This document shows positions 4,936-56,810 of a stretch of 64,000 bases of DNA, one piece after another. The notes under the pieces are model-generated. The model worked only from the letters and a program-made list of their open reading frames with translations, did no database searches and had not been told where the DNA came from. The stretch comes from Glaucostegus cemiculus (Eukaryota), in NCBI GenBank assembly GCA_976551045.1, contig CDPCPM010000033.1, positions 27,528,001 to 27,592,000 of the forward strand, given 5' to 3'. How positions within the stretch are numbered: position 1 is the first letter of the stretch; the number at the start of each line of letters is the position of its first letter. The position numbers and the translations under genes are program-made.

Positions 4936-5223
4936 CTTGGATTGTTAGTTTGGCTTTGCAATTGTCAGTTCCAGCCTCATTTGTGGCTTTACATAAGTAG
5001 TCACCACTATCTGTTTTTGCAGCCACTTTAATTTCTAGGGTAGCTGTGCCATCTACAAAAGTCATGTTCAATTTTTCAGATGGTTTAATTTCTTTCCTGT
5101 CTTTGAACCATTGTAGTTTAATTGGTTCAGACCCATGGACATGACAACTTAGTTGCATGGACTCTCCTTCAGTTGTTGTCATTGGTTTAAGTGGAATATC
5201 AAAGACAGGTGGCTTCTTAAGTT
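4936..5223 (-). CDS. ttn: titin Ig exon L (I79 equivalent)
   Basis: 288 nt, ELKKPPVFDIPLKPMTTTEGESMQLSCHVHGSEPIKLQW; gtaaag donor. Confidence 0.95.
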
Positions 5224-5929
5224 CTAAAACAACAATGAAATAAATGTTAATATTTAATACAGAAATTTTTCCATTATCACTTTATATAATCTCTCCCCTT
5301 TGAGTTTGTGCCCTTGTTGTTTCCAAATTAAAAGGTTTCCTCTTTCACCTAACAATATTTAGTTGAAGACTTGCTCAAAATCACTAATGGCACTTAATAA
5401 TTTGCCAGGAATATGTGCATTTTTGCCAGGCAATATGTTTATGGAAACCTTCAGCACTTTTCCACCACATAAAATTTCATCTAATGACCTATCCTCAAAA
5501 TGATGGAACTTGCCCAAGAACAAAAGGAAGTTAACATAGAATGATAGTTAACTAAGATATAAATCCTTCCCATTTTAGTTGGATTTTAATAACAAAACAG
5601 AGGCAAGCTGGATAAAGACACAAAACCCAAGAAATAAAGAACTTATTTTCTCAAAACTTGCAGCAATGTAAAAACCTTCCAAAGTTATAAATCTTTCTCG
5701 TTTCATGTGCCATTCAATAACTTGACTTCAATGGCATTACCATCTCCAAGTTCCACACAAACATCCTGGGAGGCCACCAAATGACCAGAAACTCAAGTTT
5801 GCAGAAATATAGTGATTCCAAAAGAGTGACAAGAGACTCATCTCCTGATACCACAAGGGCAAGATGGTATACTTTATTCTTTATTATTATAGCTGGAATG
5901 TAAGATTATAAAACAGAAGAAACAGATGA

Positions 5930-6505
5930 CGGCATTCTATAATCATACTGCGTGCTTACTAACAAGTTACCTTCAGTTAGCCGTATACAAAGACATCCAG
6001 GTTCCCCTGAGCACCATCACTTTTCAATCTCCGACCATTTAAACAATACTCTAAAAGTCTGACACCATTTGGGCAAAGCATCTGACTTGATGGGCACAAT
6101 ATCTGCTGTTCTAAAATACTTCAAATATCTATTCCCTCCACCAGAGCAACATATGTGTAGTGTGTTTCATCTACAAATGCACTGCAGTTACTTGCCCAGC
6201 CAACTCTGACAGCACCTCCTAAACCTTGATTTCTACCACCAAAAATACTAAAGAGAATAACACCACCCACACGATCTTGTCCAAGTCGCAGAACATTCTG
6301 ACTCTGAAATAAACTGATGTTCTTTCTTTGTGCCTTGCTATAAATTCTGGAATCTCCTCTCAATGGCATAATGGGACTAGCTTTTCCAGAAGAACTGTGG
6401 TGGTTCAAGAACATGACTCACACCACCTCCCAAGTGATACTAGTGATGAGCAATATATGCTGACCTTGCCAGCAATGCCCAAATCATGAAAAATGAATAA
6501 ATAAA
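5930..6505. mobile_element. old composite LINE remnant (inverted CR1 piece plus a LINE 3' end), copy 3
   Basis: ttttcaatctccgaccatttaaacaatact followed by ...tgaccttgccagcaatgccc..aatgaataaataaa; related copies near 9270-9810 and 14220-14735. Confidence 0.55.
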
Positions 6506-6719
6506 GAGAACTTTTTTATATTTTCTGCAGCGTTATTGATTAAAAGACAAGATTTAAACAAAATGTGTATAAGAAAAGTCAACAATAGGCAACAATTTTA
6601 GAAGTTCATTAGACATCAGAATAATATATATCAAGGCTAAAAGAAATGACTAAACAAACAATAGAAAATGCAAGTGTAAGCTACCCCAACCCTTGTAATC
6701 ATGAATATCCATCACTGAC

Positions 6720-7010
6720 CTTTGATCAGCAGAGACACATCAAGTTTTGCAGTGCCCGCTTCATTGGATGTTTCACATGTATAAACACCAGAATCAGCAA
6801 GCTGTGCTTTCTTAATGTTCAACAATATGACATTATTTTTAAATGATAACTCATAATTTTCAGTCTGCAAGATCTCTTGCTCATCTTTGAACCAGGTTAC
6901 AGATAATGGTTGTGAACCAGAAACACGAGCTTCAAGTTTTATAGATTTTCCTTCTGTATCCTGTATTGTTTCAAGAGGCTTTTTAGTAAAGCTTGGTGGA
7001 ATTTTACGAT
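6720..7010 (-). CDS. ttn: titin Ig exon K3 (I78-like)
   Basis: 291 nt, DRKIPPSFTKKPLETIQDTEG. Confidence 0.95.
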
Positions 7011-7412
7011 CTGTAACAGAAAGGAGTAGTATCATGAAAATTTAACAGATCTGACTGGCCTGAAACATGCTGACTTTTGTCAAAAGTTCCAACTGGCACT
7101 GCTGCCATTCTTCATTTGAAATGGCAGTTCACGTGGAATTCTGCAATAAAGTGGAACATTAAGATAGGGAAATTGCTTCTTAGATTGTACACAAGATCAA
7201 GTCTGGTACAGAATATGAGACCCTATAGACTTAATGGGGATTGTCATGTGGAGTACTTGGGCATCTGAGATAAAAACAGCTCCGGAGTGGGCTGGGAAGA
7301 GGAACATGTTTGAACCATCTGTGTGCTAAGGCCTTGGTCTTACAGATATTGAGTGTAAGGCCCATCTTCTTGTATGCTTTGGAACTCTGCGTCTGAGCAT
7401 GCACAAATTAAA

Positions 7413-7846
7413 GTATCTGACATCGGTGGTGGGAAAGTTATTGGAATCGATCCTCAAGGATGACGTTAAGGAATACCTAAAGGCGCAAGGCAAGATAGGT
7501 CCATGCCAGCATGGTTTCGTGAAGGGAAGATCCTGCCTGACCAACCTATTGGAGTTTTTTGAGGAAATCTCAAGTAGGGTAGATAAGGAAGAGGCTGTGG
7601 ATGTTGTGTATTTAGACTTTCAAAAGGCCTTCAACAAGGTGCCGCACAAGAGGCTGATTAATAAGATGAGAGCTCATGGAATTACAGGTAGGATATTGGA
7701 ATGGGTGGAGCATTGGCTGGTAAGCAGAAAGCAAAGGGTGGGAATAAAGGGATCCTGTTCTGGTTGACTGACATAGGTTGTTCGACACAGCTTTGTGGGC
7801 CGAAGGGCCTGAATTGTGCTGTAGGTATCTATGTTCTATGTTCTAT
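7413..7846 (+). mobile_element. CR1 LINE fragment: RT segment joined to 3' tail
   Basis: LTSVVGKLLE..QHGFVKGRSCLTNLLEFFE..VDVVYLDFQKAF, then gggccgaagggcctg...ctatgttctatgttctat tail. Confidence 0.9.
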
Positions 7847-8486
7847 TTTAGTAGGCAAATGGAAATGTGTTACTTTTTAATTTTGTGTTTGCTTTGCTTT
7901 GGTTTAATTATTTCTAAACATTTTTGTGTGTTTTAGTTAATATCTTTATTTTTGATTCATTCAAAATTAATTTTTGTCATGTTTTTAATTACTTGCATTT
8001 AAAAATAATTTCAATGAACTTCATATCCAACTTCGGAAGCTACCAGGATTTTGAATGCTATTGGAACAAAGAGAAATGGGAAAGCGAAGGAAATTGGTGT
8101 TGATATAGAAGTTTAGCCTTGTTCTTTTTGAATGGTAGCGCAGGTTATTTTGGTTAATCCTATTTTTTAGTTCTTAAATGCTAAAATTATGCTCCAAGAA
8201 ATAGCTGGTAGAGTCAGGTGCATTATTAAAACAAAAAGTTAATGACCAACGTTAAGAAAAGTCCTCTATTTTTGATGTTACTTTTCACAGATTTTTTTTA
8301 GGCAATTGCCGATAAGACATTCAGGAAAGGCAAAGTAAGAATTCGACTAGCACAACACAACAAAAAGTAACAAATAAAAGTTATTTTTAAAAGATGTAAA
8401 ATAAACATTTTTTCCATAATTAATAAAGACTAGGCTCATATACTACACCAGAAAGTAAAGATTTATAACTTTGATTGAGCAATAAC

Positions 8487-8774
8487 CTTTCACAGACACT
8501 TCAGCTTTGCAGATATCTTTTCCAATATCATTGCTGGCCTCACAAGTGTATTGACAAGCATCTCCCTTATCTGCTTTTAGAATAGTCAGCTGAGGTGTAT
8601 TTTCCACATAAGTTATCTTGTAATTGCCACCCGATCGAATCTCTTTGCCATCCTTCAGCCAAGTAACTTTAATTGGGGAAGACCCAATTAAGTGGCATTC
8701 AAGATCCACAGTTTTCCCAATTGTAACTTCCACTGGTTCTAGTTTTTTGTCAAATAGAGGAGCAACTCTAGACT
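8487..8774 (-). CDS. ttn: titin Ig exon J3
   Basis: 288 nt, ESRVAPLFDKKLEPVEVTIG. Confidence 0.95.
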
Positions 8775-8941
8775 CTGAAAACATAACAAGAATTGCATTC
8801 TTTTGTAAATGCATCAACAGCAAAGTAATAACATCTAGCAATGACTGATGAAAGAAGAAATTAAAGCACTAATGCTATAAAATTCAGGTAAATGTAAATT
8901 AAGCAAAGAAGCCAAATTAGTAAATATTTAACCCAACATAC

Positions 8942-9229
8942 CTTTGAGAGCCAGTTTTGAACTACATGAAACATCTCCTACTATGTTGGAAGCTTTGCAA
9001 GTGTATTCACCAGCATGATTCAACTCAGTTTTAAGAATTTTAAGAACTGCTACATTCTCATTGAAAGATATAATTAGGTTTTCTCCAGGAAGCAATTTTA
9101 CACCATCTTTAAACCAAGAAGTTTCAATAGGAGCTGAACCAGCAGTACAACATTCAAATGTGACCGGTAAACCAACAGTTACTTCAATATTCTCAATTTC
9201 TCTTAAGAAAGAAGGTGGTGTTTTATGCT
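8942..9229 (-). CDS. ttn: titin Ig exon I3
   Basis: 288 nt, EHKTPPSFLREIENIEVTVG. Confidence 0.95.
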
Positions 9230-9269
9230 CTGTAAAATAAAGAGTCATGAAAATAAGAAGGTCATTTGA

Positions 9270-9810
9270 ACGTCCTACTTGCTTGCCATACCCACATGTT
9301 AACTTACAGTGATTTATGCACAATGATACCAAGATCTCTCTGAACACCAACACTTTACAATCTCTCACCATTAAAGCAATACTCAGGAAGCTCAACACCA
9401 TTCTGTACAATGCAGCCAACCACTCTTAGCCACTCTAAACATCCAATGCAATCAACACCAGGGTACCATGGCTATAGTGTGCACCATCAACAAAATGCAC
9501 TTCAGTCACTTGTCTAGGCAACTCTGATAGTACCTGCTAAAACCACAAACACTACACCAATAAAGCACATGGCACCTGCAGGTTCCTCTCCAAGTCACAC
9601 AATATTCTGACTTGGAAAGATACCATTGTCATCACCACTGGGTTTAAAATCACAGAATTATCTTCCTAATGGTATTATGAACTACTTTTTCTGGAAATCT
9701 ATGGCATTTTAAGAAGGTAGCTAACTACCACCTTATCAAGGGCATTTGAGATGAGCAATAATTGTTGACCTTCCCACTGATGCTTAATCATAAGAAATGA
9801 GTAACAATAA
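9270..9810. mobile_element. old composite LINE remnant, copy 2
   Basis: ctttacaatctctcaccattaaagcaatact...ttgaccttcccactgatgc..aaatgagtaacaataa, similar to 5930-6505. Confidence 0.5.
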
Positions 9811-9924
9811 TTTCTACATATATTCTGTAGCAAGCTATTGGTTCAAAGATCCCATTTGACAAGAAGTGTTTACAACAAATAGGGATTTTAGAATGCCCAT
9901 TGGGCATTAGAATAATGAGTAACC

Positions 9925-11915
9925 AAAGAACATAAAAAAACTAGAACAGGAATAGAACATTCAGTCCCTTGCATCTGTTCCAACATTCATCAAGATCATG
10001 ACTAATCGTCTGTCTGGGTGCCATTTTCCAGCACTACCACAAGTTCCTTGACTCCATTAAAATCCAGAAATTAGCCAATTTCTGTTTTGAATGAAGAACT
10101 GAGGTTTCACACTCCTCTGGACTAGAGAATTCCGAAGGTTCATCACCATACGAATTAAGTAATTTTTCCTCATCTCAGTTAAAATGGCTTATCTCATATT
10201 CTAGGACCAAGAGTCCTGGTTCTAGTGTCCTAAAACATGGGAAACATTCTCCATTTCAAATCCTATTTTAAATTCCAGTAACATCACTTCTCATTCTTCA
10301 AAACTCTATAGAATATAGTCCCATTCTACTCAAATCTCCCTTCATATGGCAAAACCAGAATCCGTGGAATCAGTCTAGTGGACCTTTGCTACACTTCCTC
10401 TTTGGCAAGTATGTCCTTTGTTGGGTAAGGAAACCAAAAGTGTACCCAATTTTTCTGGTGCGATTTCACCAACTGCTATACAATTGCAATAAGACTTCCT
10501 TACTTCTGTAATCAAACCCTGTCGTTGCACAGGCTAACATACCATGCCCTCCTAATCATTTGCTACCTCTGCATGTTGGCTTTTAGTGATGAATACAAGC
10601 ATATCAGCTCCCTTTGAACATCAACACTACCCAATCTCTCACAATTTAACAAATATGCTGTTTTTCTGTTATGCTCACCAAAATGGTTGATCTCATACAT
10701 TTCCACATTAAATTCCATCTGCCATGTTCATGCCCACTCATTCAGCTCATTCATATCCTCGCAAAACATTCTCTTCCATGCTCACATTTCCATCTAGTTT
10801 ACTATCATCAGCACATTTTATAATGTGGTATTTGGTCCCCTAAGCCAAATTAGTGATATAGATTGTGAAAAGCATCAATCCTAGTGGTATCCTAGTTGAA
10901 GACTGCCAACCTGAGTAGGATCTGTTGATTGCCACTCCTTGTTTTCTGTCCAATAATTAATTCTCAATCCATAATATACTACCCTTGAATCCATGTGTTC
11001 TGTCCTTGTTGACCAATCTCCTTACTGAAAGCCTTTCCAAAATCTAATCCACCAGTTTTGCCCTTATCTTTCTTACTGGCTACATCCTTAAAGAAGTTCA
11101 TTAAATTATTCAAACATGATTCTCATAAATCCATGTGACTATGTTCAATCCTATTAACCTTTTCAAGGTGTTCTGTTATTAAGTGTTTCAATATAGATTG
11201 CAGCACTTTCTCTATCATCAATATCAGGATAACAGGTAGTAGTTCCCTGTTTTTCCTCTCCCTCCTTTCTTAAACAGTGGGATCACATTTACATACGTCA
11301 ATCCACAGGATTAATTCCAGAAGGCATAGAACCTTGGAAGACGACAGCCAGATCATCATCTTCTTCTAAACTCACTTCCTTCAAAACTCTCAAACGTAGA
11401 TCATCTGTCCCTTGGTATTTATCAGTTTTAAAGTTCACTAACTCCTCTAGTATCTTTTCTTGTCTAACACTGGTGCCTTCAGTTCCTCAATCTTGCTGGA
11501 CTTTCTCTTCTTTACTATATCTGGTAGGTATTGTGTATCTCCTTCCATGAAGACAGAACAAAGTAATTGTTTAATTTCTCTTTCATTACAAATTCCCATT
11601 ACAAATTCTCCTGTCTGTCTGTAAGGGGCCCACATTTGCCCTTGTTAGTTTTTTTTAACCTACTTATCAACACCCTCATAGTCCATTTGTGTGTTTCTTG
11701 ACAGTCTATTCTCACATTCCACTCTGACTTTATCAACTTCTTAGTCCACCTTTCCTGAATTCTAAAATGCTCGCAGTCTTCAGGCCTACTGAAATTTCTG
11801 ATAACCTTATAAAGCTCTTCATTTTATTTATACTATCTTTAATTTCTCTTGTCAACCATGGATGAATCACTTTTTCTTTTGGATTGTGTATCTTAAAGGA
11901 ATATACTTCTAACAA
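9925..11915 (-). mobile_element. heavily decayed CR1 LINE
   Basis: reversed tail (aacata..tagaacaggaatag..cattcagtccctt), RT remnants, HPWLTREIKDSI fragment; boundaries approximate. Confidence 0.75.
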
Positions 11916-11997: not shown

Positions 11998-12288
11998 CTT
12001 TGATCAGCAGAGAGACATTAAGCCTTGCAGTGCCTGCCTCATTGGATGCTTCACACGTATAAACACCAGAGTCAGCAAGCTGTGCTTTCCTAATGTTCAA
12101 TGTTATTACATTATTTTTAAATGATAACTCATAATTTTCAGTTTGCAAGATCTCTTGCTCATCTTTGAACCAGGTTACAGATAATGGTTGTGAACCAGAA
12201 ACACGAGCTTCAAGTTTTATAGATTTTCCTTCTGTATCCTGTATTGTTTCAAGAGGCTTTTTAGTAAAGCTTGGTGGAATTATATAAT
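11998..12288 (-). CDS. ttn: titin Ig exon K2
   Basis: 291 nt, DYIIPPSFTKKPLETIQDTEG. Confidence 0.95.
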
Positions 12289-13456
12289 CTGCAACAGAAA
12301 GGAGTAGCATTATAAATATCACATATATTCAACTAGCCTGAGGTATGCTGAGTTTTACTGAAGGTTCCAACCTGAACAGTTAACATTCTGTTATTGAAAC
12401 GGTATTTTGAGTTTTTTTTAAGTACTAGCATGGACTTACTGCAATGCGGAACTCCCAAAGCAGTTGTTTCTTTGACAAACTTTCTGCAAGATCTGAGACC
12501 ACATTGATTTTAATGGGAATTCTAGAGCAATAATTTTACATTTTTACTTTTGTGTTTGCTTTGGCTTGTGTTTCCTTAAGTGCTTTATATGCTACATTAT
12601 TATCTTTGAATCCTTTCAAAAAAAAGTATTTATTTGTTTAATTATTTGCCTTGATTTTAGTGGTTTTTAAACTAGTTTGAACATCAGACAATTAAATACG
12701 AATAAAATAATTGATGACTACTACAGTTGGCAAAACTCTGTCCTCAGCTTTGCCAACCATCAGGAAGTTTCCAGAAAAGGGCCTCTAATTTGCATGACCT
12801 GATAGAAATGCTGCTGGACTCCAGGGGTGTGGAAAATCATTAGGGCAGGACATTTCCATTGGACCCCGGTGAAAGCAACAGCAATTTAGGTAGGCTACAG
12901 ATTAGCATGATCACATCCATAGATTTTATTTTTATTTCTTCAGTAATATTATTTTTCTCTGAGTGAAACTTGGTCTCTCCCTCATTTGAATATGTTAAAG
13001 ACTAACCTTTACGGAGTATTGTTTACAGATCAGAATGAACAAGATTGGGAAAGCACAGGAAATTGATGCTTAGGAGTTGATGTAGAAGTTCAGCCTTGCT
13101 CCTGCTAAATAGTGGAGCAGGCTATTTAGCCTCAACTTGCTCACATTCTTTGGGTCTAAAAAGCTAAATATACATCTCAGGAAATGGACAGATTGAGTGT
13201 ACTGAAATAGAGAATGATCAGCATTAAAACAGTTCGACAGTTTTTTGACATTATTTGTTATAACTAGATTTGTTTTTTAGCTATTGCTAGGAAAGGCAGA
13301 TAAGAATACCACATACAAAATATAACAAAAACTGACCAAGTGGCTTATCAGTGTCATTTTGGAGTTGCAAGACAATCATTCTCCTTTAAAACTGATGAAG
13401 TCTCGGCTCATAAGATGAAAAAGGGAGCAAAGACTATAACTATTATTGATCAATAC

Positions 13457-13744
13457 CTTTCACAGTCACTTCAGTTTTGCATGAATCCTTTCCAATATCA
13501 TTGCTGGCCTCACAAATATATTGACAAGCATCTCCCTTGTCTGCTTTCAGTATTATCAAGTGAGGTGTATTTTCCACATAAGTTATCTTGTAATTGCCAC
13601 CCGATCGAATCACTTTGCCATCCTTCAGCCAAGTAACCTTAATTGGGGGAGAGCCAATTAAGTGGCATTCAAGATCCACAGTTTGCCCACTTGTTACCTC
13701 CACTGGTTCTATTTTTTTGTCAAATAGAGGGGCAACTCTAGATT
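13457..13744 (-). CDS. ttn: titin Ig exon J2
   Basis: 288 nt, ESRVAPLFDKKIEPVEVTSG. Confidence 0.95.
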
Positions 13745-13904
13745 CTGAAAATATTACAATAAAGAATTATATTCCATTATATAAGTATCAATTGCAAAGT
13801 AATAAGGTCTATCAATTATGGATCAAAGCAGATAGCAAAGTAAAATTAAGGTAAATGTTAATTAATTAAAGAAGCTCAATTCATAAATATTTAAACCAAC
13901 ATAC

Positions 13905-14192
13905 CTGTAAGAGCTAGTTTCGAACTACATGAAACAACTCCAACTATGTTGGAAGCTTTGCAAGTGTATTCACCAGCATGATTCATCTCAGTTTTAAGAA
14001 TTTTAAGAGTTGCTACATTCTCTATGAAAGACATAATTAAGTTTTCTCCAGGGAGCAATTTTACACCATCTTTAAACCAAGAAGTTTTAATAGGAGCAGA
14101 ACCAGCAGTACAACATTCAAATGTTACTGGTAGACCAAGAGTCACTTCCATATTCTTAATTTTCCTGACGAAAGAAGGTGCGGTTTTATGTT
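13905..14192 (-). CDS. ttn: titin Ig exon I2
   Basis: 288 nt, EHKTAPSFVRKIKNMEVTLG. Confidence 0.95.
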
Positions 14193-14219
14193 CTGTAAAA
14201 TAAACCATTATGGATTGAG

Positions 14220-14735
14220 AAGACTATTCTGACTTCCTCCTTGCTTCCCCTACGCACATACTAACTGTTAGAGATTCATGTGCAAAGAAACCCAAGTCAC
14301 TCTAAAAGCTAACACTTTTCAATCTCTCACCATGAAACAACACTTGAGAAGTTTGACAAAGCAACTAACTTAACCATATCTACAATTCTAAATCTCTTTA
14401 AACATCCACTTCCTCCATTATCAGTATGACATGGCTGCGCAATGCACCTCATGTACTTGACTCTCTGACAGCACCTCCTACCTCTATCACCAAGAAAGCA
14501 CACTTAGAACACAACCACTTGCAAAGCCTTCTCCAAGTTGCTTAATATTCTGGCATGTAAATATATCGCTACTCATTCATCATCACAGAATCTATGTTCT
14601 GGACTTCCCAATAACAATGTGTGTTTATCTTTCCGAGAAGAACAGTGGTTGTTAAAGAAGTTGGCTCAACAACACTTTCTCAAATAAACACTGGTGATAT
14701 GAGTAATGTCCACATCTTGAAAAATAAATAATAAG
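14220..14735. mobile_element. old composite LINE remnant, copy 1
   Basis: acttttcaatctctcaccatgaaacaacact...aatgtccacatcttgaaaaataaataa, similar to 5930-6505. Confidence 0.5.
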
Positions 14736-16704: not shown

Positions 16705-16992
16705 CTTTCACAATCACTTCAGTTTTGCATGAATCCATCCCAATATCATTGCTGGCCTCACAAGTGTATTGACAAGCATCTCCCTTGTCTGCTTTCAGAA
16801 TAATCAGGTGAGGTGTATTTTCCACACAAGTTATCTTGTAATTGCCACCCGATCGAATCTCTTTGCCATCCTTCAGCCAAGTAACTCTAATTGGGGAAGA
16901 CCCAATTAAGTGGCATTCAAGATCCACACTTTGCCCTGCTGTAACTTCTACCGGTTCTAGTCTTTTATCAAATTTGGGGGCAACCCTCAGTT
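16705..16992 (-). CDS. ttn: titin Ig exon J1
   Basis: 288 nt, ELRVAPKFDKRLEPVEVTAG. Confidence 0.95.
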
Positions 16993-17162
16993 CTAAAAAT
17001 GTAACAAAAATAATCATTTTTGTTGTAAAAGTATCAACAGCAAAGTAATAACAACGTGCAATAACAGATGAAAGCATATATTAAAATGTCAATACTATAA
17101 AATTTATGGTAAATATTAATTAATTAAAGATGTTGAATTAGTAAATGTTTAACCCAAAGTAC

Positions 17163-17450
17163 CTTTGAGAGCTAATTTGGAACTGCATGAAGCATCTCCC
17201 ATCATGTTTGATGCTTTGCAAGTGTATTCACCAGCATGCTCCATCTCAGTTTTAAGAATTTTAAGAGCTGCTACATTCTCCATGAAAGATATAATTAAAT
17301 TTTCTCCGGGGACCAATTTTGCACCATCTTTAAACCAAGAAGTTTCAATAGGTGCTGAACCAGTTGTACAACACTCAAATGTTACTGGAAGACCAAGAGT
17401 TACTTCCATATTCTTAACTTTTCTTACAAAGGAAGGTGCAGTTTTGTGTT
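17163..17450 (-). CDS. ttn: titin Ig exon I1
   Basis: 288 nt, EHKTAPSFVRKVKNMEVTLG. Confidence 0.95.
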
Positions 17451-17589
17451 CTGTAAAATAAACCGTAACGGATTGAGTTAATATGTGATTGTACAAGCTT
17501 CCTTTAACAGTAAGTAAAAGATCAAACGTGTTCCAACAGAAATACACAAATTCGGCACAAATGCCAATTAATCTACCAATCAACATCAC

Positions 17590-17868
17590 CTTGTACAGTG
17601 AGCACAGCCTTTGATGAGCAGGAACCTATTTTGTTTTCAGCTTTACAAATAAATTCCCCGCAGTCATTCATTGCTACTTTCTTCCATTCCAATTTTGCAA
17701 CATTGTTCACAAACTCCATTTTGCAATTTGGCATGGCTCTCAGTTTTGTATCTCCTTTGTACCAAGCTACTTTTATTTCAGGTGTCCCAGCAAGTGTGCA
17801 TTGAAAAGATCCCGAGTCACCAACTGTTATTTCCAGAGGCTCTAAATGTTGGACAAATGTTGGTGGTT
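17590..17868 (-). CDS. ttn: titin Ig exon H
   Basis: 279 nt, [24 protein letters not shown]. Confidence 0.95.
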
Positions 17869-17993
17869 CTAAGATAAAAACAATACATATCAATGACTAA
17901 AAAAGATGCATATCAAATGTTTAGAAAAAGAAAGCAAATAAGAAAAGTATTGATTTTAATTCTACAGCTGAAAGAAATTAAAAGTGAACAAAC

Positions 17994-43069: not shown

Positions 43070-44343
43070 CTAGTTTTTTGAAGAGGTAACCAAGAGGATT
43101 GATGAGGGCAGGGTGGTGGATATTGTCTGTATGGACATTAGCAAGGTCCCACATGGAAGGCTGGTATGCAAGGTTAGATTGCACGAGATCCAGGAAGAGC
43201 TAGCTAAGTGGATACATAATTGACTTGATGTTAGGAAGCAGAGGGTGATGGTAGAAAGTTGTTTCTCAAACTGAGTCCTGTGAGTAGTGGTGTGCCACAG
43301 GGATTTGTGCTGGGCCCACTGTTGTTCATCATTTATATAAATAATTTGGATGAGAATGTATAAATATTTCTAATATTTTATAATATTTATAATAATTTAT
43401 AATATTTATATAAATCATTTATATAAATAATTTGGATGAGAATGTACAAGGCATGGTCAGTAAGTCTGCAGATGATATTAAAGTAGGTGGTATCATAGAC
43501 AATGAAGGTTATCAAAAATTACAACGGAATCTTGATCAGCTAGGTAAGTGGGCCAAGGAATAGCAAATGGCATTCCATCTAAATAAGTACAAGGTATTTT
43601 TGGAAGTCAAACCCCGGTAGGACTTTCACAGTGAATAGTAAGACCCGGAAAAGTGTTGTAGAGCAAAGGGACCGAGAAGTACAAGTACATTGTTCCCTGT
43701 AAGTGGCATCACAGGTAGACTGGATGGTGAAGAAAGCATTTCACATGCTGGCCTTCCTCAGTCAGGGCAGTTGAGACAGTAGTTGGGACGTTATTTTGCA
43801 ATTGTACAAAACATTGGTGAGGCTGCACCCAGAGTATTGTGTACAGTTTTGATTACCCTGTTATAGGAAAGATGTCACTAAGCTGTAAAGACTGCAAAGA
43901 AGATTTATGAGAATACTGCCAAGAATCAAGGGCATGAGTTATAGGGAGAGATTAACAGGGTTGGACCTTATTCCTTGGAGTGTATGAAACTGAGGGGATG
44001 ACCTTATAGAATTGTATAAAATCATGAGGGGTGTAGACAGGGTGAATGCACACAATCTTTTTCCCAGTGAAAGTGTGTCAAAAACTAGGGGGCATAGATT
44101 TAAGGTGCGAGGTGAAAGGTCTAATTGGGAACTGAGAGGCAACTTCTTCACACAGGGGGTGGTGTGTATATGGAACGCACTGCCAGAGGAAGTGGTTGAG
44201 GCAGATACAATAACAACACTTATAAGACACATAGACAGCTACATGGATAGGAAAGGTTAAGAGGGATATGGGCATCTTGGTTGATGTGGACGAGTTGAGC
44301 CAAAAGGCCATTTTTCTTGCTGTATTACTCTGTAACTCTATTA
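43070..44343 (+). mobile_element. 5'-truncated CR1 LINE (RT domain to 3' tail)
   Basis: gtggatattgtctgtatggac (VDIVCMD), SGVPQG..LGPLLF, YKIMRGVDRV..KTRGHRFKV..WNALP, tail ctctgtaactctat. Confidence 0.9.
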
Positions 44344-44361
44344 TATCTTATGGTCACACAC

Positions 44362-44643
44362 CTTTAACAGTAATTGTAACAATGCAGTTGTCAAAGCCAG
44401 CTTCATTCTCTGCTCTGCAAGTGTAATGTCCACTGTCTTCCACATTGACATTAATAAGTTCAAGGACTGATCTTGACTCAACAAATGACATCCTGAATTT
44501 GTCACTTGGGAGAATTTCACTTTCTTGCTTGTACCAGGTTACTTTGATCTCAGGTGTTCCAGTTACAGTGCATTCAATAGATGTTGAACTTCCTGTTTTC
44601 AATAATGTTATACGATCTGGCTTCTGAATGAAGTTTGGAGGCT
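44362..44643 (-). CDS. ttn: titin Ig exon A3
   Basis: 282 nt, EPPNFIQKPDRITLLKTG. Confidence 0.95.
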
Positions 44644-47154: not shown

Positions 47155-47433
47155 CTTTGACAAAAAGATGTGCCACACATGATTCAGTGCCAACTTCATT
47201 GCTGACTCGACAAGTATAGTCACCAGTATCAGAGACTTTTGCTGAATGGAGTTGTAGCATACTTGTTGAACCTTCCTTTGAAATGTAAAGTGAACTACTC
47301 GGCACCAACTCCTTTTTGTCCTTGAACCATTTGATGGTTGTTGGAGGAGTTCCACTAATAACACTCCTAAACTGTACTTTAGAACCAGGTACAACATCCT
47401 GAGACAAAGGCTTCACAGTAAAATATGGAGGTT
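47155..47433 (-). CDS. ttn: titin Ig exon F2
   Basis: 279 nt, EPPYFTVKPLSQDVVPG. Confidence 0.95.
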
Positions 47434-47668
47434 CTGAAAATTCCAGAGGAAGACTAGTCATTATCACAAGAAAATGAAATGAAAATTGATACAGTACATT
47501 TTATGAAAATGAAATGTTAAAATAAGAGCACAAGTATAATACATGCATTCTCAGCATGTTTGTTAATGTGGTAAATTAAATGAAAGGCAAGTAATACTTT
47601 GGATAACTGAAGGATATTAGTCAATATAATTTTGAAGCAATTAAGAAATTGAATGCAACATTTCAAAC

Positions 47669-47956
47669 CTTTCACAGTTAAGACACCAATACTCTGATCA
47701 GTTCCAGCAGCATTTGTTGCTCTGCAAGTGTAGGTTCCACCATCTGTCATCTCTAGTTGATGAATCTCCAATTGTGCAATGTTATCATGGTAAGAAAACT
47801 TATGTTTTTCATTAGCTGATAATTCTTCGTTGTCCTTATACCAAAGCACACTCATTGGAAGAGAACCAGAGATTTTGCATTCCATCTTAACAAAAGAAGT
47901 TTTGATGCCATCCATATTTTTTAAGTTTCTTTTAAATGATGGTGGAACTATGCGAT
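47669..47956 (-). CDS. ttn: titin Ig exon E2
   Basis: 288 nt, DRIVPPSFKRNLKNMDGIKT. Confidence 0.95.
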
Positions 47957-48066
47957 CTGTCCAACACATGGTGGGAAATCAAAGATTACTATTTCTTCCA
48001 AAATCTTTGCTGTTTCTTTTAAATATTTCAGTAATTGCAATGAAATTAAAGAGTAAAAATACCAAC

Positions 48067-48345
48067 CCAATACTGTAATGGAAGCTTTGCAACTGCTGCT
48101 ACCAACGTCATTCTCGATCTCACAGGTATATTCACCACTATCCTCTTTCTCGGTAAAAGGAATCTTTAAACTAGTAACCTTATTTGTAACGCTGATTTTG
48201 TATTTTCTCCCAGTAATCAACTCTGTGCCATTCTTAAACCATCTGGCTTTAATTTCTGGTGTTCCTGTAAAACTGCAGTCCAATGTTGCTGGCTCTCCTG
48301 CAGTTACACTAATAGAATCTGCCTTTTCTATAATAGCTGCAGGTT
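48067..48345 (-). CDS. ttn: titin Ig exon D2
   Basis: 279 nt, EPAAIIEKADSISVTAG. Confidence 0.95.
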
Positions 48346-49837
48346 CTGTGACAATAAAATAAATAATATTAGAGGGCAAGAATATAAGAAACAATGGAAG
48401 ACCATTTAAGTCCATTAATTTTCCTTTCATGAACCCACGCCATTGAATCTAAAACCATATGTGGACAATCTCTATTTGTAAAGATTATAGCATCTGTTCA
48501 TGCATCTCTCATGTTCAGGAGAACTGGTTAAACAAATGTTCATTCAATTTGGTGTTCATTCAATCCGCCTATCAACTATTAGTGACTCAGTTTGTTTTAG
48601 ACTTTCACACATGCTTTGCAAAAGTCAAAGGTCCAAAATACTCTAGAAGTCAAGTGCCAGCATATCTAACCTCCTTCTCAAGCTCTTGGGTCACTGTCAA
48701 GGCCAGTGGCAAAGCAATGACATGGAGAAATGGGAGTAGGCACTTTGCAACTGTCCTCTAAATCCTTTGCTAGGGCTAGAAGATGGTGTGCAAAGGAGAC
48801 CCCATTTCTTTGAATCATTAGTACTTTATGTGAATTTTAATTTTTGTACTTTTTAAAGTTATTAAGTCTATTTAACTAATTTTTAAAAGTCTCTTTCAAT
48901 CAGAGATATACAGTTCAAAAGTCTTGGACCGTAGCTAGTTGCCATGGGTTGTCAGGGTATTCAGAGAGGGAGGGATTGAACATTAAAAATCAGTTGTTTT
49001 CCTCACCCTTTAGGATGCATTAATTTTACAAAATGAATTGCTAAGAATACAAAGTAATATGGCACAGCTTCACAAAGGAGCAACTGCTACTTTCTGAACA
49101 TCATCTAGTGGTCGGATTCAAATAAACATTAAATTTAAGGATAGATGAAGTAATAGAGGGAGCAACATGGAAAGAAACAGAATGAACTGAGGACAAATTA
49201 AATAAGTAAAAAGAAGAAATAGAAAGAAAGACTGGATTAATAGAGTGATTGAAAAAAATAGTAAGCAACAGAAAGGAAACAAAAAATGTTTGGAAACTTC
49301 TGAGCAATTTATCACCTGCATGTAATTTGATAGTTTCAATTGAAAACACAAAAATCTCTTTCTGAGCCAACAAGATTGAATTTTATGTAACTACCATAAA
49401 TCACACAATTTCAAATGCCCTCGCAACATGGAACACTAGTCCAAATGTCTGTAGTAAGATTATTTCATATGCATGGACCAATCCATCAATTTCCTTTCAT
49501 GCATGGAGAGTGAAGATAAGTTTCCACTTTTGCAAGGATGGTGCAAATCATCCAACAATTTGTGGCTTTAATAACTAATACTGTATCTTTGCTCTGCCAC
49601 AAAGCCCGGAAGTTTTATGCACCAAAAATGGTGGACACTAGAAATTCAAAACTTGAGCCCTAAATTTAAGTTTAAGATTTTCTTTACCGTATAGCCATTC
49701 CAGAAAAAATATTATCTTTTATTTACATTATCTTAAAACATCCTTCTAAAAATTAAAGTAACTCAAAACATCTAAAGCTGTTGACTTTTAGAAATAACTG
49801 AATGTTTAACATATATGATAGCAATCTTTAAACCAAC

Positions 49838-50116
49838 CTTTCACAGTTAAACTTGCAACACATTTTGCGATTCCTGCATCATTCTTTGCCTCACAAACAA
49901 ACTTCCCACCATGATGTTTTTCAGCAGAAGCAATATGCAGTGTTGCTGTATCTTCTTCAAAAGATATTTTAGTATTAGCATCTTCAGTAATATCATCTTT
50001 ATCTTTTTGCCAGGTTATGGAAATTGGGCTTGAACCTTTCACAGTACATTGAAACATAGCAGGCGTTCCCAAAAGCACTGTAATATTTTCAATCTTCTTG
50101 AAAAATGATGGTGGTT
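49838..50116 (-). CDS. ttn: titin Ig exon C2
   Basis: 279 nt, EPPSFFKKIENITVLLG. Confidence 0.95.
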
Positions 50117-50235
50117 CTGTTTTTAAAACAGGACTCTCTAATTAGTCAGTGCAAAGACAACTTTTAATTAGGAGAAACAAAATTTATTTTATTGTAATAT
50201 AATGGAAGATAAGCTCTTGCTAAGTCTTCACTAAC

Positions 50236-50514
50236 CTTTCAAAGCCACTGCAGAACTGCATGAACAACTTCCAACTTCATTTGATACCGTGCATTGATAT
50301 TCACCAACATCCACAGTGTCAAATTTAAGAATATGTAAACGAACAAAAGAGTTTTGACAGATTGCCTTGTACTTTTTACTAGGCCTAATTTGCTTATTAT
50401 CCTTATACCAAGAAACTTCAAAGGGGGCTGTACCAGCCACTTCACATTCAAGAACAATGTCAGAGGCTTTAATCACCTCAAGAGATTCAAGTCTTTTACT
50501 GAATGATGGAGGAT
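50236..50514 (-). CDS. ttn: titin Ig exon B2
   Basis: 279 nt, DPPSFSKRLESLEVIKA. Confidence 0.95.
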
Positions 50515-50639
50515 CTGCAAAAGAATAAATAATAAATTCAATCTAACAGTGTCATTTGACATCTAGATCCAAGCATAAGATCCACACATAGCTTGTGAAT
50601 GTAGCCAAAGTCATAAAATTATGAGATATCTTCACAGAC

Positions 50640-50921
50640 CTTTAACTGTTACAGTAGCACTGCAACTCTCACTACCGACTTCGTTCTTAGCTTCACAAGT
50701 GTATTCGCCACTGTCTTCCACAACACCATCAAGAATTTCAAGAACTGACACATTGTTAACAAATGAGATTTGGTATTTGTCACTGGGATGAACCTGCTTG
50801 TCTTTCCTATACCATGTAACTTTAATTTCAGGTGTGCCAGTCACTTCACATTCAAATCGAGCCGAGTCACCACTTTTCAATAATTTTGATGGCTCTAGCT
50901 TCCGGGAAAATGTTGGTGGTT
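50640..50921 (-). CDS. ttn: titin Ig exon A2
   Basis: 282 nt, EPPTFSRKLEPSKLLKSG. Confidence 0.95.
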
Positions 50922-51145: not shown

Positions 51146-51424
51146 CTTTAACAAAAAGATTTGTTGCACAGGAAATTGTTCCAGCATCATTGCTGATTTC
51201 ACAAATGTAATCAGCCATATCAGATGGTTTCACCGAAAAAAGCTCAAGATAGGTTGTAGAAATATCCTTCATAATGAAACAGCTGCCACCAGTCACAAGT
51301 TCTGTGTTACCCTTGAACCATTTCATTGACATTGGAGGTGTTCCATTTACAACAGCCTTAAACTTCACAGTTGTACCCGGTAGAACTTTCTCTGATGCAG
51401 GTTTGACTATAAAGCTTGGAGGCT
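51146..51424 (-). CDS. ttn: titin Ig exon F1
   Basis: 279 nt, EPPSFIVKPASEKVLPG. Confidence 0.95.
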
Positions 51425-52134
51425 CTAAAAGACATTTTAAAAAAAAGCACAATAATTCATAAAAATTAAACATATCAAGCAAGTAAGTTTCCTCACCCCT
51501 TTCTTCTCTCCCTTCTTTGAAGATGTGACACAAACTGAAGTACACTGTCATAACTCCAGAAGTCTGCTGGTACTTCAACTATTTGGGATCAGATAACTGA
51601 ATACATTCTAACATTGAAAGGGCATATCCCATAGGTTTCCCTAATGGATCAACGTTTATCTGCCAAGTAGTTAACAAGAACATACAAGGATCAATTGCTA
51701 ATTTGTGCTTAGTAAGCTGATCTCCATAGGGTAACTGCGGCATCATTATAATCAAGCAGTGAGGTTTGAGTGGAAAGAAAATTACAAAGGATGCTTACTC
51801 CCAATATTTGACTTGAATATTATGCCTATTGATATTAAATAAAGACAGGAAATAGCTCTGCAAGGATGACTCCTGCAGTTGAATATTGTGCTAATTTTCT
51901 CTATCAAGCTTCACATGAGAATTACGGCCATTGGATAGAAAACCAAAAGGTGACATAAAAATTTCCTTGGCAGAGTAACAACAGATGTCAGGAAAGCAAA
52001 AATGGCCCCAAATACTGCCAAACTGCAACATATTAATCAATGAATATGTACTTAAAATAAAAATAGTCTTGCAAAAGGAACAAAAGCTACATTAGTAAAA
52101 TGACAAATGGCAAAATTAAGTTACTTATTCAAAC

Positions 52135-52422
52135 CTTTCACGTTTAAGACTCCACTGCATTCATCACTTCCTGCAGAGTTAGTAGCTTTACAGGAGTAAG
52201 TTCCACCATCCGAAATTTCTAATCGTTTAATCGTCAAAGCAGCGGTGTTGTCTTGACATGATATTGTGTACTTATCATTGGCTGATAACTCTTTGTCATC
52301 TTTATACCAAGAAATCCCAACTGGGATAGAACCAGAGAATTTGCAATCCATGTGAAAGGTCGCACCCAAGATGCTGGTCATTTTCCTCAATTTTTTAGTG
52401 AAGGTTGGAGCAATCATACGAT
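52135..52422 (-). CDS. ttn: titin Ig exon E1
   Basis: 288 nt, DRMIAPTFTKKLRKMTSILG. Confidence 0.95.
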
Positions 52423-52520
52423 CTGTCCGAGGCAGAGCAACAAATCAATGATATTACCTGAATCAATTTAAAATATGCTTAAATTATTGCAAGAAAAGGA
52501 ATTATAAATTATATACTAAC

Positions 52521-52799
52521 CCAATACTGTAATAGAAGTTTTGCAACTGCAACTCCCCACATCATTTTTGACCTCAAAAGTATATTCACCACTATCCTCA
52601 TTTTCTACAGAAATAATCTTTAGGCTGGCAATTTTATTTAATAAACTTGTTTTATATTTTCTACTGGATATTAGCTCCTTTCCATTCTTGAACCATTTAA
52701 TTTTGAGTTCTGGTGTGCCGGCTATTACGAACTCCAAAGTTGCTGGGTCTCCGGCAGTCACACTAATTGGCTCCGCCTTCTCTATGATATTTGCTGGCT
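52521..52799 (-). CDS. ttn: titin Ig exon D1
   Basis: 279 nt, EPANIIEKAEPISVTAGDPATLEF. Confidence 0.95.
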
Positions 52800-52890
52800 C
52801 TATGGTGAAATGAAATGGTTAACATTAACAAAGCTTAGCAATGCAAAGTGCGTTGTTTCATAAACCAGACCAATACATTGTCAAACTGAC

Positions 52891-53169
52891 CTTTCACAAT
52901 TAATGTTGCTAGACACTTTTGGCTTCCTGCTTCATTTTCTGCAAGACAAGTGTACCTGCCACTGCTGTTCATTTCAACAGCAGCAATGTGAAGAGTACCA
53001 ATATTATTCTCTAAAGTCATTTTGACGTTATCACTTTCTGTGATAAGATCTTTATCTTTCAACCAAGTTAAAGTGATTGGCAGTGAGCCTTTCATGCTGC
53101 ATTGAAACACTGCTGAGCTTCCCAAAATTGCAGTAGCATTTTCAATTTTCTTCACAAATGATGGAGGTT
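52891..53169 (-). CDS. ttn: titin Ig exon C1
   Basis: 279 nt, EPPSFVKKIENATAILG. Confidence 0.95.
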
Positions 53170-53278
53170 CTAATTTAAAAGAAAGGTACAAATATTGGGT
53201 TATAGATTATCTGGTCCATCTGTTAAACCTTTACATTATTGTGACATGTTTATCTCAATTTCCATAAAGAATACTGAC

Positions 53279-53557
53279 CTTTCATCTTCACTGTTGCACC
53301 ACAGAGACACTTTCCTACTTCATTAGACACTGTGCATTGATAATCACCAACATCTGAGAACTCAAAAAGGCTAATGTGGAGATAAGCACGCATATTTTGG
53401 AAAATCATCTTGTATTTCTTACTAGATCGGATCTGCTTTCTGTCTTTGTGCCAAACAACTTCAAATGGAGTTGTACCAGCCAGCTCACATTCAAGAGTAC
53501 AATTGAATCCTTTTACCACTTCAGTGGGATCAAATGTTTTGATAAAAGAGGGAGGTT
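53279..53557 (-). CDS. ttn: titin Ig exon B1
   Basis: 279 nt, EPPSFIKTFDPTEVVKG. Confidence 0.95.
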
Positions 53558-53682
53558 CTAAAAAGGAATGCACAAAAATTCTATTTCAAACTACCTGCTT
53601 TTCAAAAAGATAAAAGAAACAAGCAATATGGATCTCTCAACAGCAGCAATGTGAAGAGTACTAATATCAACATTGTACAAAC

Positions 53683-53964
53683 CTTTGACTGTAATGATAG
53701 AGCTGCAGCTATCTGTACCAGCTTCATTTTGTGCTTCACATACATAATCCCCACTATCTTCTACATTTAGATCATTAATCTCAAGATCAGCTGAAGAATC
53801 ACTAAATGATATCTTGTATTTCTCTGAGAAATTGAGAATCTTATTGTCTTTGTACCAGGTAACACTAATTTCAGGCGATCCTTTCACTTGGCAATTCAAG
53901 TGTGCTGAATCACCTTTTTTCAACAGCAGTGATGGTTCTGGCTTTCTGATGAATGAAGGCGGTT
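53683..53964 (-). CDS. ttn: titin Ig exon A1 (I30 equivalent)
   Basis: 282 nt, EPPSFIRKPEPSLLLKKG. Confidence 0.95.
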
Positions 53965-54519: not shown

Positions 54520-54950
54520 GGTTCACCAGGTTGATTCCTGGGATGGAGTTATTGTTTTATGAGGAGAGATTATGCAATCTGGGCCTGTACCCTGCAGTTT
54601 AGAGAAATAAATAATCTCATTGAAAATTCATACTTCTTACAGGATTTGATAGGATTGATGTCAGGATGATATGTCCCTTGGTCTGGGTATCTAGAAAAAA
54701 GGGTTGCAATAAGCAGATCTGAGAAGAGAACAAATGTCTTCAACCAGAGCACCTAGGATTCTCCACTCAAGAGAGCTATGAAGGCTCAATTCATAAGTAT
54801 ATTCAGGACAGAGATAAATAATTTTTTAGATATTAAAACAATTAATAGATACAGGATTAGTACAGGAAAGCAGGACTGAGGTAAAAGATCAGCCTTTGTC
54901 ATACTGAATGATTGAGTAGGTCCAAATTTTTCCATTTCTTATATTCTTAT
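54520..54950 (+). mobile_element. CR1 LINE 3' end, decayed
   Basis: ggttcaccaggttgattcctgggatg (RFTRLIPGM) to a ttcttatattcttat tail. Confidence 0.7.
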
Positions 54951-55099
54951 TATTAGCATCCTCTTTCCTCAATATCTCTAATCATGTAATAAAAAAGGTC
55001 AATGTTACTTCTAGATGAATTTCTGTAACCCATGTCAAAATGGAAAAAGAGTGCCTAAAAACATATATGAAGACTTTGCATAAAAGATGAAACATCAAC

Positions 55100-55670
55100 C
55101 TATATATATATATATATCATATGCCTTTAACATAGTAAAATGTCCAAAGCCTTTCAGAGGACAATTACTAAACAACAAATTGAAACAAACCACAAAAGGA
55201 GATGTTAGGCTGATTACAGACAGCTTGGTCAAAAAGATGAGTTTTAACAAGTCTCCTTAAAGAGGAAAGAAAGGAAGAGAGGCAAAGAGATTTATGGACA
55301 ATTCCAAAGCTTGATAGTAAAGGCATGACCATCTAAGGTGAAGTGATTAAAACTAGGAATGCTTAACAGGTCAAAATTGAAGCTGCAAAATTATCTCAGA
55401 GGCTTGCTGAGCTCAGGGAGATAGAAGGTGTGATCAAGGGATCTGAAGTAAGATTGACAATTTCAAAATTGAAGTGTTGCTTAACCAGAAACAAGTGAGC
55501 AAAAGAGCGATAGGTGAAGGGACTGAGTGGAACTTAGGATACAGTAAAGTGTTTTGGATGACCTCAGGTTTATGGAAGGAAATACCAAGGAGTCTGGTAG
55601 GAGTCCTTTGTAAGAGTCAGGCCCAGAAGTAACAAACACAAGATGAGATATGGTTACAAAAGCATCAGAT
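55100..55670 (-). mobile_element. L2-like LINE 3' remnant with short (TA)n run
   Basis: gcctttaacatagtaaaatgtccaaagcctttcagagg resembles a reversed elasmobranch L2 tail (from recall). Confidence 0.45.
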
Positions 55671-55774
55671 GCTTCAGAAAACCTACTTTAATCATGGTGA
55701 GTCAATTAAATCACTGTATCAGAAGTACGATTGAACAAATGTAAAATACAGAAACTAAGATTAAAATATTTATA

Positions 55775-56100
55775 ACAGCAGCACAGTGACACAGCAGTTA
55801 ATGCTGCTGCCTCACAGCTCCATTGACCCAGGTTCCATCCTGACGTCCAGTACAGTCTATTTTGAGTTTGCTTTCTCTGACTGCATGGGTTTGCTCCAGG
55901 TGTTCCAGTTTCCTCCCAGAAATCCTAAAGTATGCTGGTCTATAGGTTATTTGGCTACATTAAATTACTCCAACTATGGGTAAATGCTCAAAGATTCAGG
56001 GCGAGTTGGTGGGCATATAAGAGTGGGTTACAGGGAACTAAATGTGGAAATTAATTGATGAGATTGCTCCAAAAGCCCACATGGGCCAAATGGCCTGCTT
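55775..56100 (+). mobile_element. tRNA-derived V-SINE (HE1-like)
   Basis: tRNA-like head (gcagcacagtgacacagcagtt..gctgcctcacagc..ccaggttccatcc) followed by V-domain-like gagtttgc..tgcatgggttt..tccagtttcctccca. Confidence 0.75.
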
Positions 56101-56246
56101 TTACATCATAAGAAAATATTTTAAAATATGAATAATGTAGCAAGAAATATTGGCTATAATGGAACCTTTAAAAATATTTATAGTTTTATATAGAGTAGCC
56201 ATAAAGTACTGCTTAAAAACAGCATGAGATTTACAACACTCTTTAC

Positions 56247-56810
56247 CTTTAACTGTTAATACTGCTGAGCAGGAATCACTTCCAGCTTCATTAGAAGCTA
56301 TACATACATAATTCCCGGCATCTTTCAGCTTAGCTTTCAGGACTTCCAAAACAGCTATTTTGTCTTCAAATGTAATTTTATAATATTTACTGGAATGAAG
56401 TTCTAATCCATCTTTTTTCCATGAAATTGTCACTGCTGTGTCTTCATCTACTTGACATTCAAGGCGTGCACTACTGTTAATTATAGTCTGAGTAGATTCA
56501 AGGCTCCTTGTGAAATGTGGTTTGTCAAGGACGATTAGATCAGCATGGCAGATATCAGTCCCACAGTTATTGGTCACTTTGCAAGAATAGGTTCCTTTGT
56601 TCTGTACATTCAAGTTATTAAATTCTAAAGCACGTTTGTTGCCTTTGGTTGATACTTTATAGTTCTCTTCATCTGTAATATCAATACCATTCTTCTGCCA
56701 AACTGTATGGATCACAGGCGATCCAGACACTGTACACTCAAGTTTTGCTGTTTTACCTACAAATGTTGTGACTGATTCCAGTCTGGTTACAAAGCTTGGT
56801 GGGGTAAGTT
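56247..56810 (-). CDS. ttn: titin double-Ig exon I28-I29 (human exon 51 equivalent)
   Basis: 564 nt, ELTPPSFVTRLESVTTFVGK...DKPHF...LECQVDED; gtaaag donor. Confidence 0.96.

What the first reader, a model, noticed from the sequence alone, without database searches (positions are those of the whole stretch)
4936..56810. Differently built I-band spring: nine 6-Ig super-repeats and only one 10-Ig unit
Seen: I28-I29, (A-F)x9, G-H, (I-J-K)x3, L, giving 68 Ig domains between I27 and N2A. Exon length is fixed per position (282, 279, 279, 279, 288, 279 nt). Recalled: human I28-I79 has 52 domains with three 6-Ig and three 10-Ig super-repeats. Here A9-J1 is the only 10-mer. Inference: lineages lengthened the spring independently from different units, and the 10-mer is a 6-mer plus G-H-I-J.
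Basis: partly seen in the sequence, partly recalled or inferred. Interest (0 to 1): 0.7.

Follow-up and report, generated by a model that had tools for sequence, protein, structure and literature searches.

The report
Shark-type titin with tripled three-domain block
This is the elastic part of the muscle-spring protein titin in a cartilaginous fish; its overall repeat plan is already published for the whale shark, but here a block of three domains has also been copied twice, which likely adds a short, extra-flexible stretch to the spring.

Summary
In detail: 68 intact Ig domains lie between I27 and N2A, in the order I28-I29, (A-F)x9, G, H, (I-J-K)x3, L. The headline is mostly known. Unit 9 is the first six domains of the single 10-Ig repeat (100/99), so the plan is 8x6 + 1x10. 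That is the whale-shark count in Hanashima et al. 2025 (PMC12241362), who already conclude that lineages lengthened this segment independently.

They come from a lineage-specific triplication of I-J-K (human I76-I78 equivalents) that crosses the 10-mer boundary. It is not an assembly artefact. The copies are 82-93% alike, under purifying selection (dN/dS about 0.3), and present separately in contigs of three related organisms. One new junction, at an old LINE-like remnant, was made and then copied.

All three domains carry the long three-residue linker, giving 10 in a row against 4 elsewhere. Expression is untested. Whether the 10-mer arose as 6+4 cannot be told.

The parts
59745..62739 (-). 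N2B exon (3 Ig plus unique sequence); the 5' coordinate is the ORF limit, not a mapped splice site
   Evidence: 1009-aa ORF; best hit is Callorhinchus titin-like P0017
58540..58818 (-). I27 exon
   Evidence: same position in Callorhinchus and turtle proteins
56247..56810 (-). I28-I29 double-Ig exon, 564 nt
51146..53964 (-). 6-Ig unit 1 (A1-F1), orthologous to the first 6-mer of chimaera, turtle and arowana
   Evidence: 97/97
47155..50921 (-). 6-Ig unit 2, orthologous to the second 6-mer
   Evidence: 95/95
21944..44643 (-). 6-Ig units 3-8, which group with the third 6-mer of bony vertebrates. They contain a 12-exon block duplication (about C4-B6 / C6-B8) with patchy divergence
   Evidence: 91/96; dS from 0.016 (F4-F6) to 0.77 (B6-B8); heterogeneity p=1.5e-10
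16705..21504 (-). The single 10-Ig super-repeat A9-F9, G, H, I1, J1
   Evidence: A9-F9 group with all 10-mers at 100/99; PDB 3B43 domains 2 and 6 are the best matches of I2 and C9
15443..17450 (-). I-J-K copy 1: I1 17450-17163, J1 16992-16705, K1 15733-15443
11998..14192 (-). I-J-K copy 2: I2 14192-13905, J2 13744-13457, K2 12288-11998
6720..9229 (-). I-J-K copy 3: I3 9229-8942, J3 8774-8487, K3 7010-6720
14193..14707 (-). Duplication junction 1: old dispersed repeat from the K-L intron joined to the last 27 nt or so of the H-I intron
   Evidence: bridged by contigs in runs X1 and X11
9230..9963 (-). Duplication junction 2, a copy of junction 1
   Evidence: bridged by a contig in run X1
5899..6672 (-). 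The same old repeat (LINE-like; the label CR1 is recalled) in its original place in the K3-L intron
   Evidence: a genomic copy runs into a LINE-type ORF end; no Pfam hit for that ORF piece
4936..5223 (-). L exon (I79 equivalent), single copy
969..1280 (-). ORF holding most of the first N2A Ig (I80 equivalent); N2A continues past the window end
   Evidence: same order after L in alligator, elephant and sturgeon proteins

Best explanation
This is the middle-Ig spring segment of titin in a cartilaginous fish, with the published shark plan of eight 6-Ig repeats and one 10-Ig repeat, plus a lineage-specific triplication of the three-exon block I-J-K that likely adds six translated Ig domains as a flexible stretch just before N2A. 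Shown: the exon order and integrity, class orthology, separate copies in related organisms, purifying selection, the shared junction and the linker pattern. Inferred origin: a first tandem duplication joined an old LINE-like remnant in the K-L intron to the acceptor end of the H-I intron, with no detectable homology between the two ends. Unequal crossing-over between the two copies then gave a third copy with the same junction. Symmetric phase 1-1 exons keep the frame, and a three-domain unit keeps direct neighbours at or below 40% identity. Inferred function: 578 more residues of poly-Ig in skeletal-muscle isoforms, raising slack length. All six new domains are joined by the long three-residue linker, which in I65-I66 allows free motion, so the run would be more compliant at low force than a 6-Ig repeat of equal length.
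For: 66 of 66 exons intact. I1-3, J1-3 and K1-3 each form a window-only group (100/99, 100/97, 91/85). Of 12 outgroup proteins with a classified domain after K, 9 have L, 3 have D and none has I. Pairwise dN/dS over I+J+K is 0.27, 0.33 and 0.27, p<=3e-7. Copies are 84-88% alike over K and 81-84% over I-J including the intron, while contigs of organisms A, D and E match each copy in place at about 93-98%. Junction introns align with the K3-L intron up to the last 27 nt or so, which match the H-I1 intron at 24 of 27. Copies 2 and 3 are closest: 56 shared sites against 37 and 31. Long linkers precede E, I, J, K and L in the window and in outgroups. PMC5043576 (passage) describes the I65-I66 linker as three residues long, hydrophilic and allowing unrestricted motion. 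The published plan and skeletal-muscle expression of the segment in elephant shark are in PMC12241362.
Against: No transcript evidence for any of these exons. dN/dS also counts constraint on the original copy, and K1-K2 alone is not significant (0.54, p=0.14). PMC10665226 (passage) says titin tandems are extended whatever the linker length, so the flexibility gain may be small. The K clade is not starred (91/85), and Chiloscyllium K is the only elasmobranch row. No elasmobranch I or J sequence was available, and the whale-shark count is taken from the paper, not re-derived. The H-I1 intron is only 139 nt and could have lost a matching repeat, so a repeat-to-repeat crossover is not excluded. 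Adaptive value is not shown; the expansion may be neutral.
Confidence: 0.75

Rival explanations
1. The extra I-J-K copies are real but act as alternative or mostly skipped cassettes, so a mature titin carries one block or a variable number. They would tune isoforms rather than lengthen every spring.
For: The middle-Ig segment is heavily spliced: elephant-shark muscle skips one whole 6-mer (i36-41) and heart skips i28-i69 (PMC12241362). All exons are frame-symmetric. Skipping would avoid domains 82-93% alike only three places apart.
Against: All nine exons are intact, with AG/GT ends and pyrimidine-rich acceptors and dN/dS near 0.3, so each is probably used at least sometimes. Nothing in the sequence points to mutual exclusion.
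Confidence: 0.15
2. The triplication is a neutral, tolerated accident. The copies are kept intact only because a broken in-frame Ig would harm the chain, and the extra length or hinges have no selected role.
For: Copy number varies freely among lineages (6x6 in chimaera, 8x6 in whale shark). Turtles appear to have duplicated another out-of-register block that also ends at K. Six domains are under 10% of this 68-Ig segment.
Against: The three copies are retained in at least three other labelled organisms about 5% diverged. Retention does not separate neutral from adaptive. This rival is compatible with the structural part of the best explanation.
Confidence: 0.35
3. The copy number is inflated by mis-assembly (haplotype duplication or mis-joined repeats).
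For: Tandem arrays are a known assembly risk. No single listed contig spans the whole stretch. One exon pair, F4-F6, differs at only 3 of 279 nt.
Against: I-J-K copies differ at 18-42 nt per exon and have introns of different length. The region occurs at one locus in G000. Independently assembled contigs of three related organisms match each copy and cross both junctions.
Confidence: 0.02

Closest known systems
Whale shark (Rhincodon typus) connectin middle-Ig segment, Hanashima et al. 2025, PMC12241362
   Same: I27-I29, eight 6-Ig repeats, one 10-Ig repeat, then the two C-terminal Ig (w88-89 = K, L)
   Different: The paper counts w27-w89 with single I, J and K (62 Ig from I28). This window has 68 because I-J-K is present three times. 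The paper reports no 3-Ig unit, no 12-Ig block and no breakpoint analysis (parts 1-4 of 5 and the one supplement read; figures not seen).
Elephant shark (Callorhinchus milii) connectin, same paper and protein P0017
   Same: Units 1 and 2 are one-to-one orthologues (70-85% identity in the 11 domains compared); single 10-mer
   Different: Six 6-mers and no I-J-K repeat by the paper's count; P0017 ends in unit 3, so I could not check its C-terminal part
Tetrapod titin 10-Ig triplication (human I48-I77; alligator P0028, elephant P0047; PDB 3B43 I65-I70)
   Same: Also yields three I and three J domains, with the same domain classes and linker pattern
   Different: The unit is the whole A-J 10-mer, J is followed by A, and K is single. 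The window's I and J copies form their own clades apart from these.
Human titin triplicated nine-exon PEVK region with a LINE-1 (as described in PMC12241362)
   Same: Multi-exon tandem triplication in the I-band with a LINE near it
   Different: PEVK exons rather than Ig, and recent (1-3 million years by that account). Here synonymous divergence is 0.21-0.28, well above the roughly 5% between the related organisms.

Membership tests
Titin/connectin middle-Ig segment | Lies between N2B/I27 and N2A | tested here: met
   N2B ORF and I27 upstream, N2A Ig and unique sequence downstream, Novex-3-like exons further upstream (the Novex-3 label is recalled)
Titin/connectin middle-Ig segment | One I-set Ig per phase 1-1 exon | tested here: met
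   66 of 66 single exons; Pfam I-set above cut-off for the 4 exons scanned; best PDB hit 3B43 titin
Titin/connectin middle-Ig segment | Domain classes A-J in 6-Ig and 10-Ig super-repeats | tested here: met
   Alligator, turtle, elephant, arowana and bonefish domains map in order onto window classes
Titin/connectin middle-Ig segment | Two single-copy C-terminal Ig (I78, I79) after the last 10-mer | tested here: not met
   L is single but K (I78 equivalent) is tripled together with I and J
Cartilaginous-fish 6-Ig expansion (Hanashima 2025) | More than three 6-Ig repeats and a single 10-Ig repeat | tested here: met
   Eight 6-mers and one 10-mer
Cartilaginous-fish 6-Ig expansion (Hanashima 2025) | Growth in six-domain blocks only | tested here: not met
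   A 3-Ig triplication and a 12-Ig block with a shifted register are both present
Cartilaginous-fish 6-Ig expansion (Hanashima 2025) | Expressed in skeletal muscle, spliced out in heart | tested here: inconclusive
   Three RNA runs of a related organism gave next to no cover on these exons; tissue not given
Tetrapod-type 10-Ig triplication | Whole A-J unit repeated, J followed by A | tested here: not met
   G and H are single and J is always followed by K
Repeat-mediated unequal crossing-over (NAHR) | Homologous repeat copies at both original breakpoints | tested here: not met
   The repeat is in the K-L intron and both junction introns; no match in the 139-nt H-I1 intron beyond the acceptor end. 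It may have been lost.
Concerted evolution by gene conversion | Patchy divergence between paralogous blocks | tested here: met
   12-exon block heterogeneity p=1.5e-10; I-J-K pairs p=0.006. Conversion is inferred; tracts were not traced across species.

The most novel reading that the evidence does not exclude
Titin's spring has a third, much shorter repeat unit. A 3-Ig block made only of hinge-linked domains was tripled next to the N2A signalling hub, giving a run of ten flexible joints and placing domains up to 93% identical three positions apart. It would be a natural test of how close near-identical Ig domains can sit before misfolding. The K-L intron would be a recurrent breakpoint, used independently in turtles.
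Probability: 0.4. Interest if true: 0.55.

Novelty: new variant of a known kind. Interest (0 to 1): 0.36.

Why it matters
The main idea, that sharks and mammals lengthened titin's spring separately, is in print. The addition is that duplications need not follow the 6- or 10-domain register. A three-domain unit is tolerated, apparently because direct neighbours stay at or below 40% identity (window maximum 43%), in line with the misfolding rule discussed in PMC4660218. The block offers a natural construct for two open biophysical points: whether long linkers make poly-Ig softer, and whether near-identical domains three places apart can swap strands. The junction at an old LINE-like remnant bears on the transposon role that Hanashima et al. 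proposed but did not analyse.

Tried and rejected
RNA evidence: no RNA holder listed. Three raw RNA runs of organism A (X18-X20; about 18-24% of each read) laid almost only on intronic repeats, with next to no exon cover and no splice joints among those shown. This is no evidence either way. DNA run X15 (organism C, about 3% read) had some depth in 29 of 30 bins but is too thin for copy number. X4 (organism B) matches the window at about 100% and may be the source sample, so it is not counted as independent.

Protein searches (241 proteins held) gave only two cartilaginous-fish titin fragments (Callorhinchus P0017, Chiloscyllium P0010). Full-length titins exceed the length limits, so the absence of a K-to-I order is weak evidence for elasmobranchs.

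Direction of origin of the 10-mer: class-level identities are flat and the tree is unrooted, so I left it undecided. The order of the organism was not determined.

Literature: searches found no paper on a 3-Ig unit or on a turtle duplication. The library lacks most subscription journals, including the 2017 zebrafish paper and Kenny 1999. The primary I65-I70 papers were not held, so the linker claim rests on passages in PMC5043576, PMC3859903 and PMC10665226. No structure or complex prediction was run, since single Ig exons would add nothing. Look-ups of earlier scan notes by place, long word list and sequence were empty.
Full report
Observation. The window holds part of a titin (connectin) gene on the minus strand: the N2B exon, I27, the middle-Ig segment and the start of N2A. 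It lies at G000:C33:27528001-27592000 in a 2.85-Gb assembly, and the I-J-K stretch matched no second titin locus. A splice-aware scan gave 66 single-Ig exons between 53964 and 4936, all open and phase 1-1. With the I28-I29 double exon that makes 68 Ig, and no broken Ig exon was found between them. Eight 6-mers and the genome size suggest an elasmobranch (inference); the order was not determined.

What is known. Hanashima et al. 2025 (PMC12241362; parts 1-4 of 5 and the supplement read, figures not seen) report six 6-Ig repeats in elephant shark and eight in whale shark, each with one 10-Ig repeat. Human has 3+3 and zebrafish 3+1. They conclude independent elongation, note that the 6-mer equals the first six domains of the 10-mer, and propose the 10-mer as ancestral. 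My tree of concatenated A-F units (27 rows) agrees. Window units 1 and 2 pair with chimaera, turtle and arowana units 1 and 2 (97/97, 95/95). Unit 9 joins all 10-mers (100/99). Units 3-8 sit with the third 6-mer of bony vertebrates (91/96, internal order unresolved). So the window is 8x6 + 1x10, the whale-shark count. An unchecked scan note (e1-9847553) reports the same count in another shark.

What differs. The whale shark has 62 Ig from I28 by the paper's numbering; the window has 68. The six extra are two more copies of I-J-K, the last two domains of the 10-mer plus the first of the conserved C-terminal pair. Class identity is fixed by alligator, elephant, sturgeon, arowana and turtle proteins and by PDB 3B43. 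In single-class trees the three window copies group alone (I 100/99, J 100/97, K 91/85 with Chiloscyllium K outside). Among 241 proteins held, 22 have a K-class domain and 12 have a classified domain after it: 9 L, 3 D, 0 I. Only one of the 12 is a cartilaginous fish.

It is real. The copies are 82-93% alike as protein and 81-88% as DNA. Four contig sets were laid on 6600-18300 at 92% likeness; 32 of about 25,900 pieces were shown. Organisms A, D and E each gave separate pieces on copies 1, 2 and 3 at about 93-98%. Runs X1 (14025-14872) and X11 (13948-14425) cross junction 1, and X1 (9102-9500) crosses junction 2. No piece spans the whole stretch. Organism B is about 100% identical and is not counted. 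Pairwise dN/dS over the three exons is 0.27-0.33 with dS 0.21-0.28, so the duplications predate the split of these relatives and the copies are constrained. One of nine single-exon pairs (K1-K2) is not significant.

How it arose (inferred). The K1-I2 and K2-I3 introns both align with the first 730-820 nt of the K3-L intron (61-63%) and then end in the I acceptor. The last 27 nt of K1-I2 match the H-I1 intron at 24 of 27. The shared stretch is an old dispersed repeat (40 of 40 scored candidates matched in each, one being the window itself). One genomic copy continues into an ORF resembling another LINE-type fragment of the window (no Pfam hit; the CR1 label is recalled). So one new junction was formed at this remnant and later copied. 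The simplest path is a non-homologous tandem duplication followed by unequal crossing-over; copies 2 and 3 are the closest pair. The upstream breakpoint shows no repeat, so a repeat-to-repeat crossover is not supported. Separately, a 12-exon block (about C4-B6 and C6-B8) is duplicated, with dS from 0.016 to 0.77 (heterogeneity p=1.5e-10). B4, B5, B6 and B7 are unusually alike across units (73-86%). Both point to gene conversion, as two unchecked scan notes on other shark genomes also say.

How it likely works. The added exons encode 578 residues. A three-residue extension precedes E, I, J, K and L in the window and in outgroups. The window therefore has ten long linkers in a row before N2A where others have four; a 6-mer has one in six. 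PMC5043576 (passage) describes the I65-I66 linker, the H-I junction here, as allowing unrestricted motion. PMC3859903 (passages) summarises the model of stiff segments with hinge points. Against this, PMC10665226 (passage) finds tandems extended regardless of linker. Adjacent domains in the block are 34-40% identical, while domains three apart reach 93%. PMC4660218 (passages) ties long-lived misfolds to identity between neighbours and says its model neglects non-neighbours. Whether the exons are used in series is unknown, because the RNA runs were uninformative.

Verdict. The unpublished part, as far as searches reach, is a genuine, lineage-specific 3-Ig triplication with a mappable junction. 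It is a new variant of a known kind, of modest interest (0.36).

Noticed in passing
Proteins P0003 (Terrapene), P0007 (Gopherus), P0008 (Pelusios): Predicted proteins of three turtles show K followed by D (K-D-E-F-G-H-I-J-A in P0003; H-I-J-K-D-E in P0007 and P0008), and Terrapene has two different K domains. This fits an independent, out-of-register duplication of about 18 Ig that also ends in the K-L intron. It rests on gene models only.
   Followed up: partly
window:21944-39890: 12-exon block duplication with a shifted register and very patchy divergence (F4-F6 differ at 3 of 279 nt, B6-B8 at 72 of 279); B4-B7 are homogenised across units.
   Followed up: partly
window:38404-38682 and 29943-30221 (D4, D6); 36920-37207 (E4): The conserved core tryptophan of the Ig fold is replaced by cysteine in D4 and D6 (92-aa domains, shared through the 12-exon duplication), and E4 has a cysteine right after it. 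These may be mechanically weaker domains.
   Followed up: no
window:7330-7826, 3059-3686, 43994-44257, 45818-46153, 56992-57300, about 19200-19500: Decayed LINE-type and other repeat fragments in introns (RVT_1 at 7330-7764; weak endonuclease hit at 3059-3457). Those within 4700-24600 account for nearly all reads laid from the RNA runs.
   Followed up: partly
P0002 (Poeciliopsis) and P0004 (Synchiropus): Teleost titin models with an altered 10-mer end (G-H-G-x-K, and H-K-L without I-J); may be second-paralogue structure or annotation gaps.
   Followed up: no
L011:9999-2644: Two very long ORFs (1261 and 1175 aa) with Ig domains upstream of N2B, in the position of the Novex-3 exon (label recalled).
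   Followed up: no
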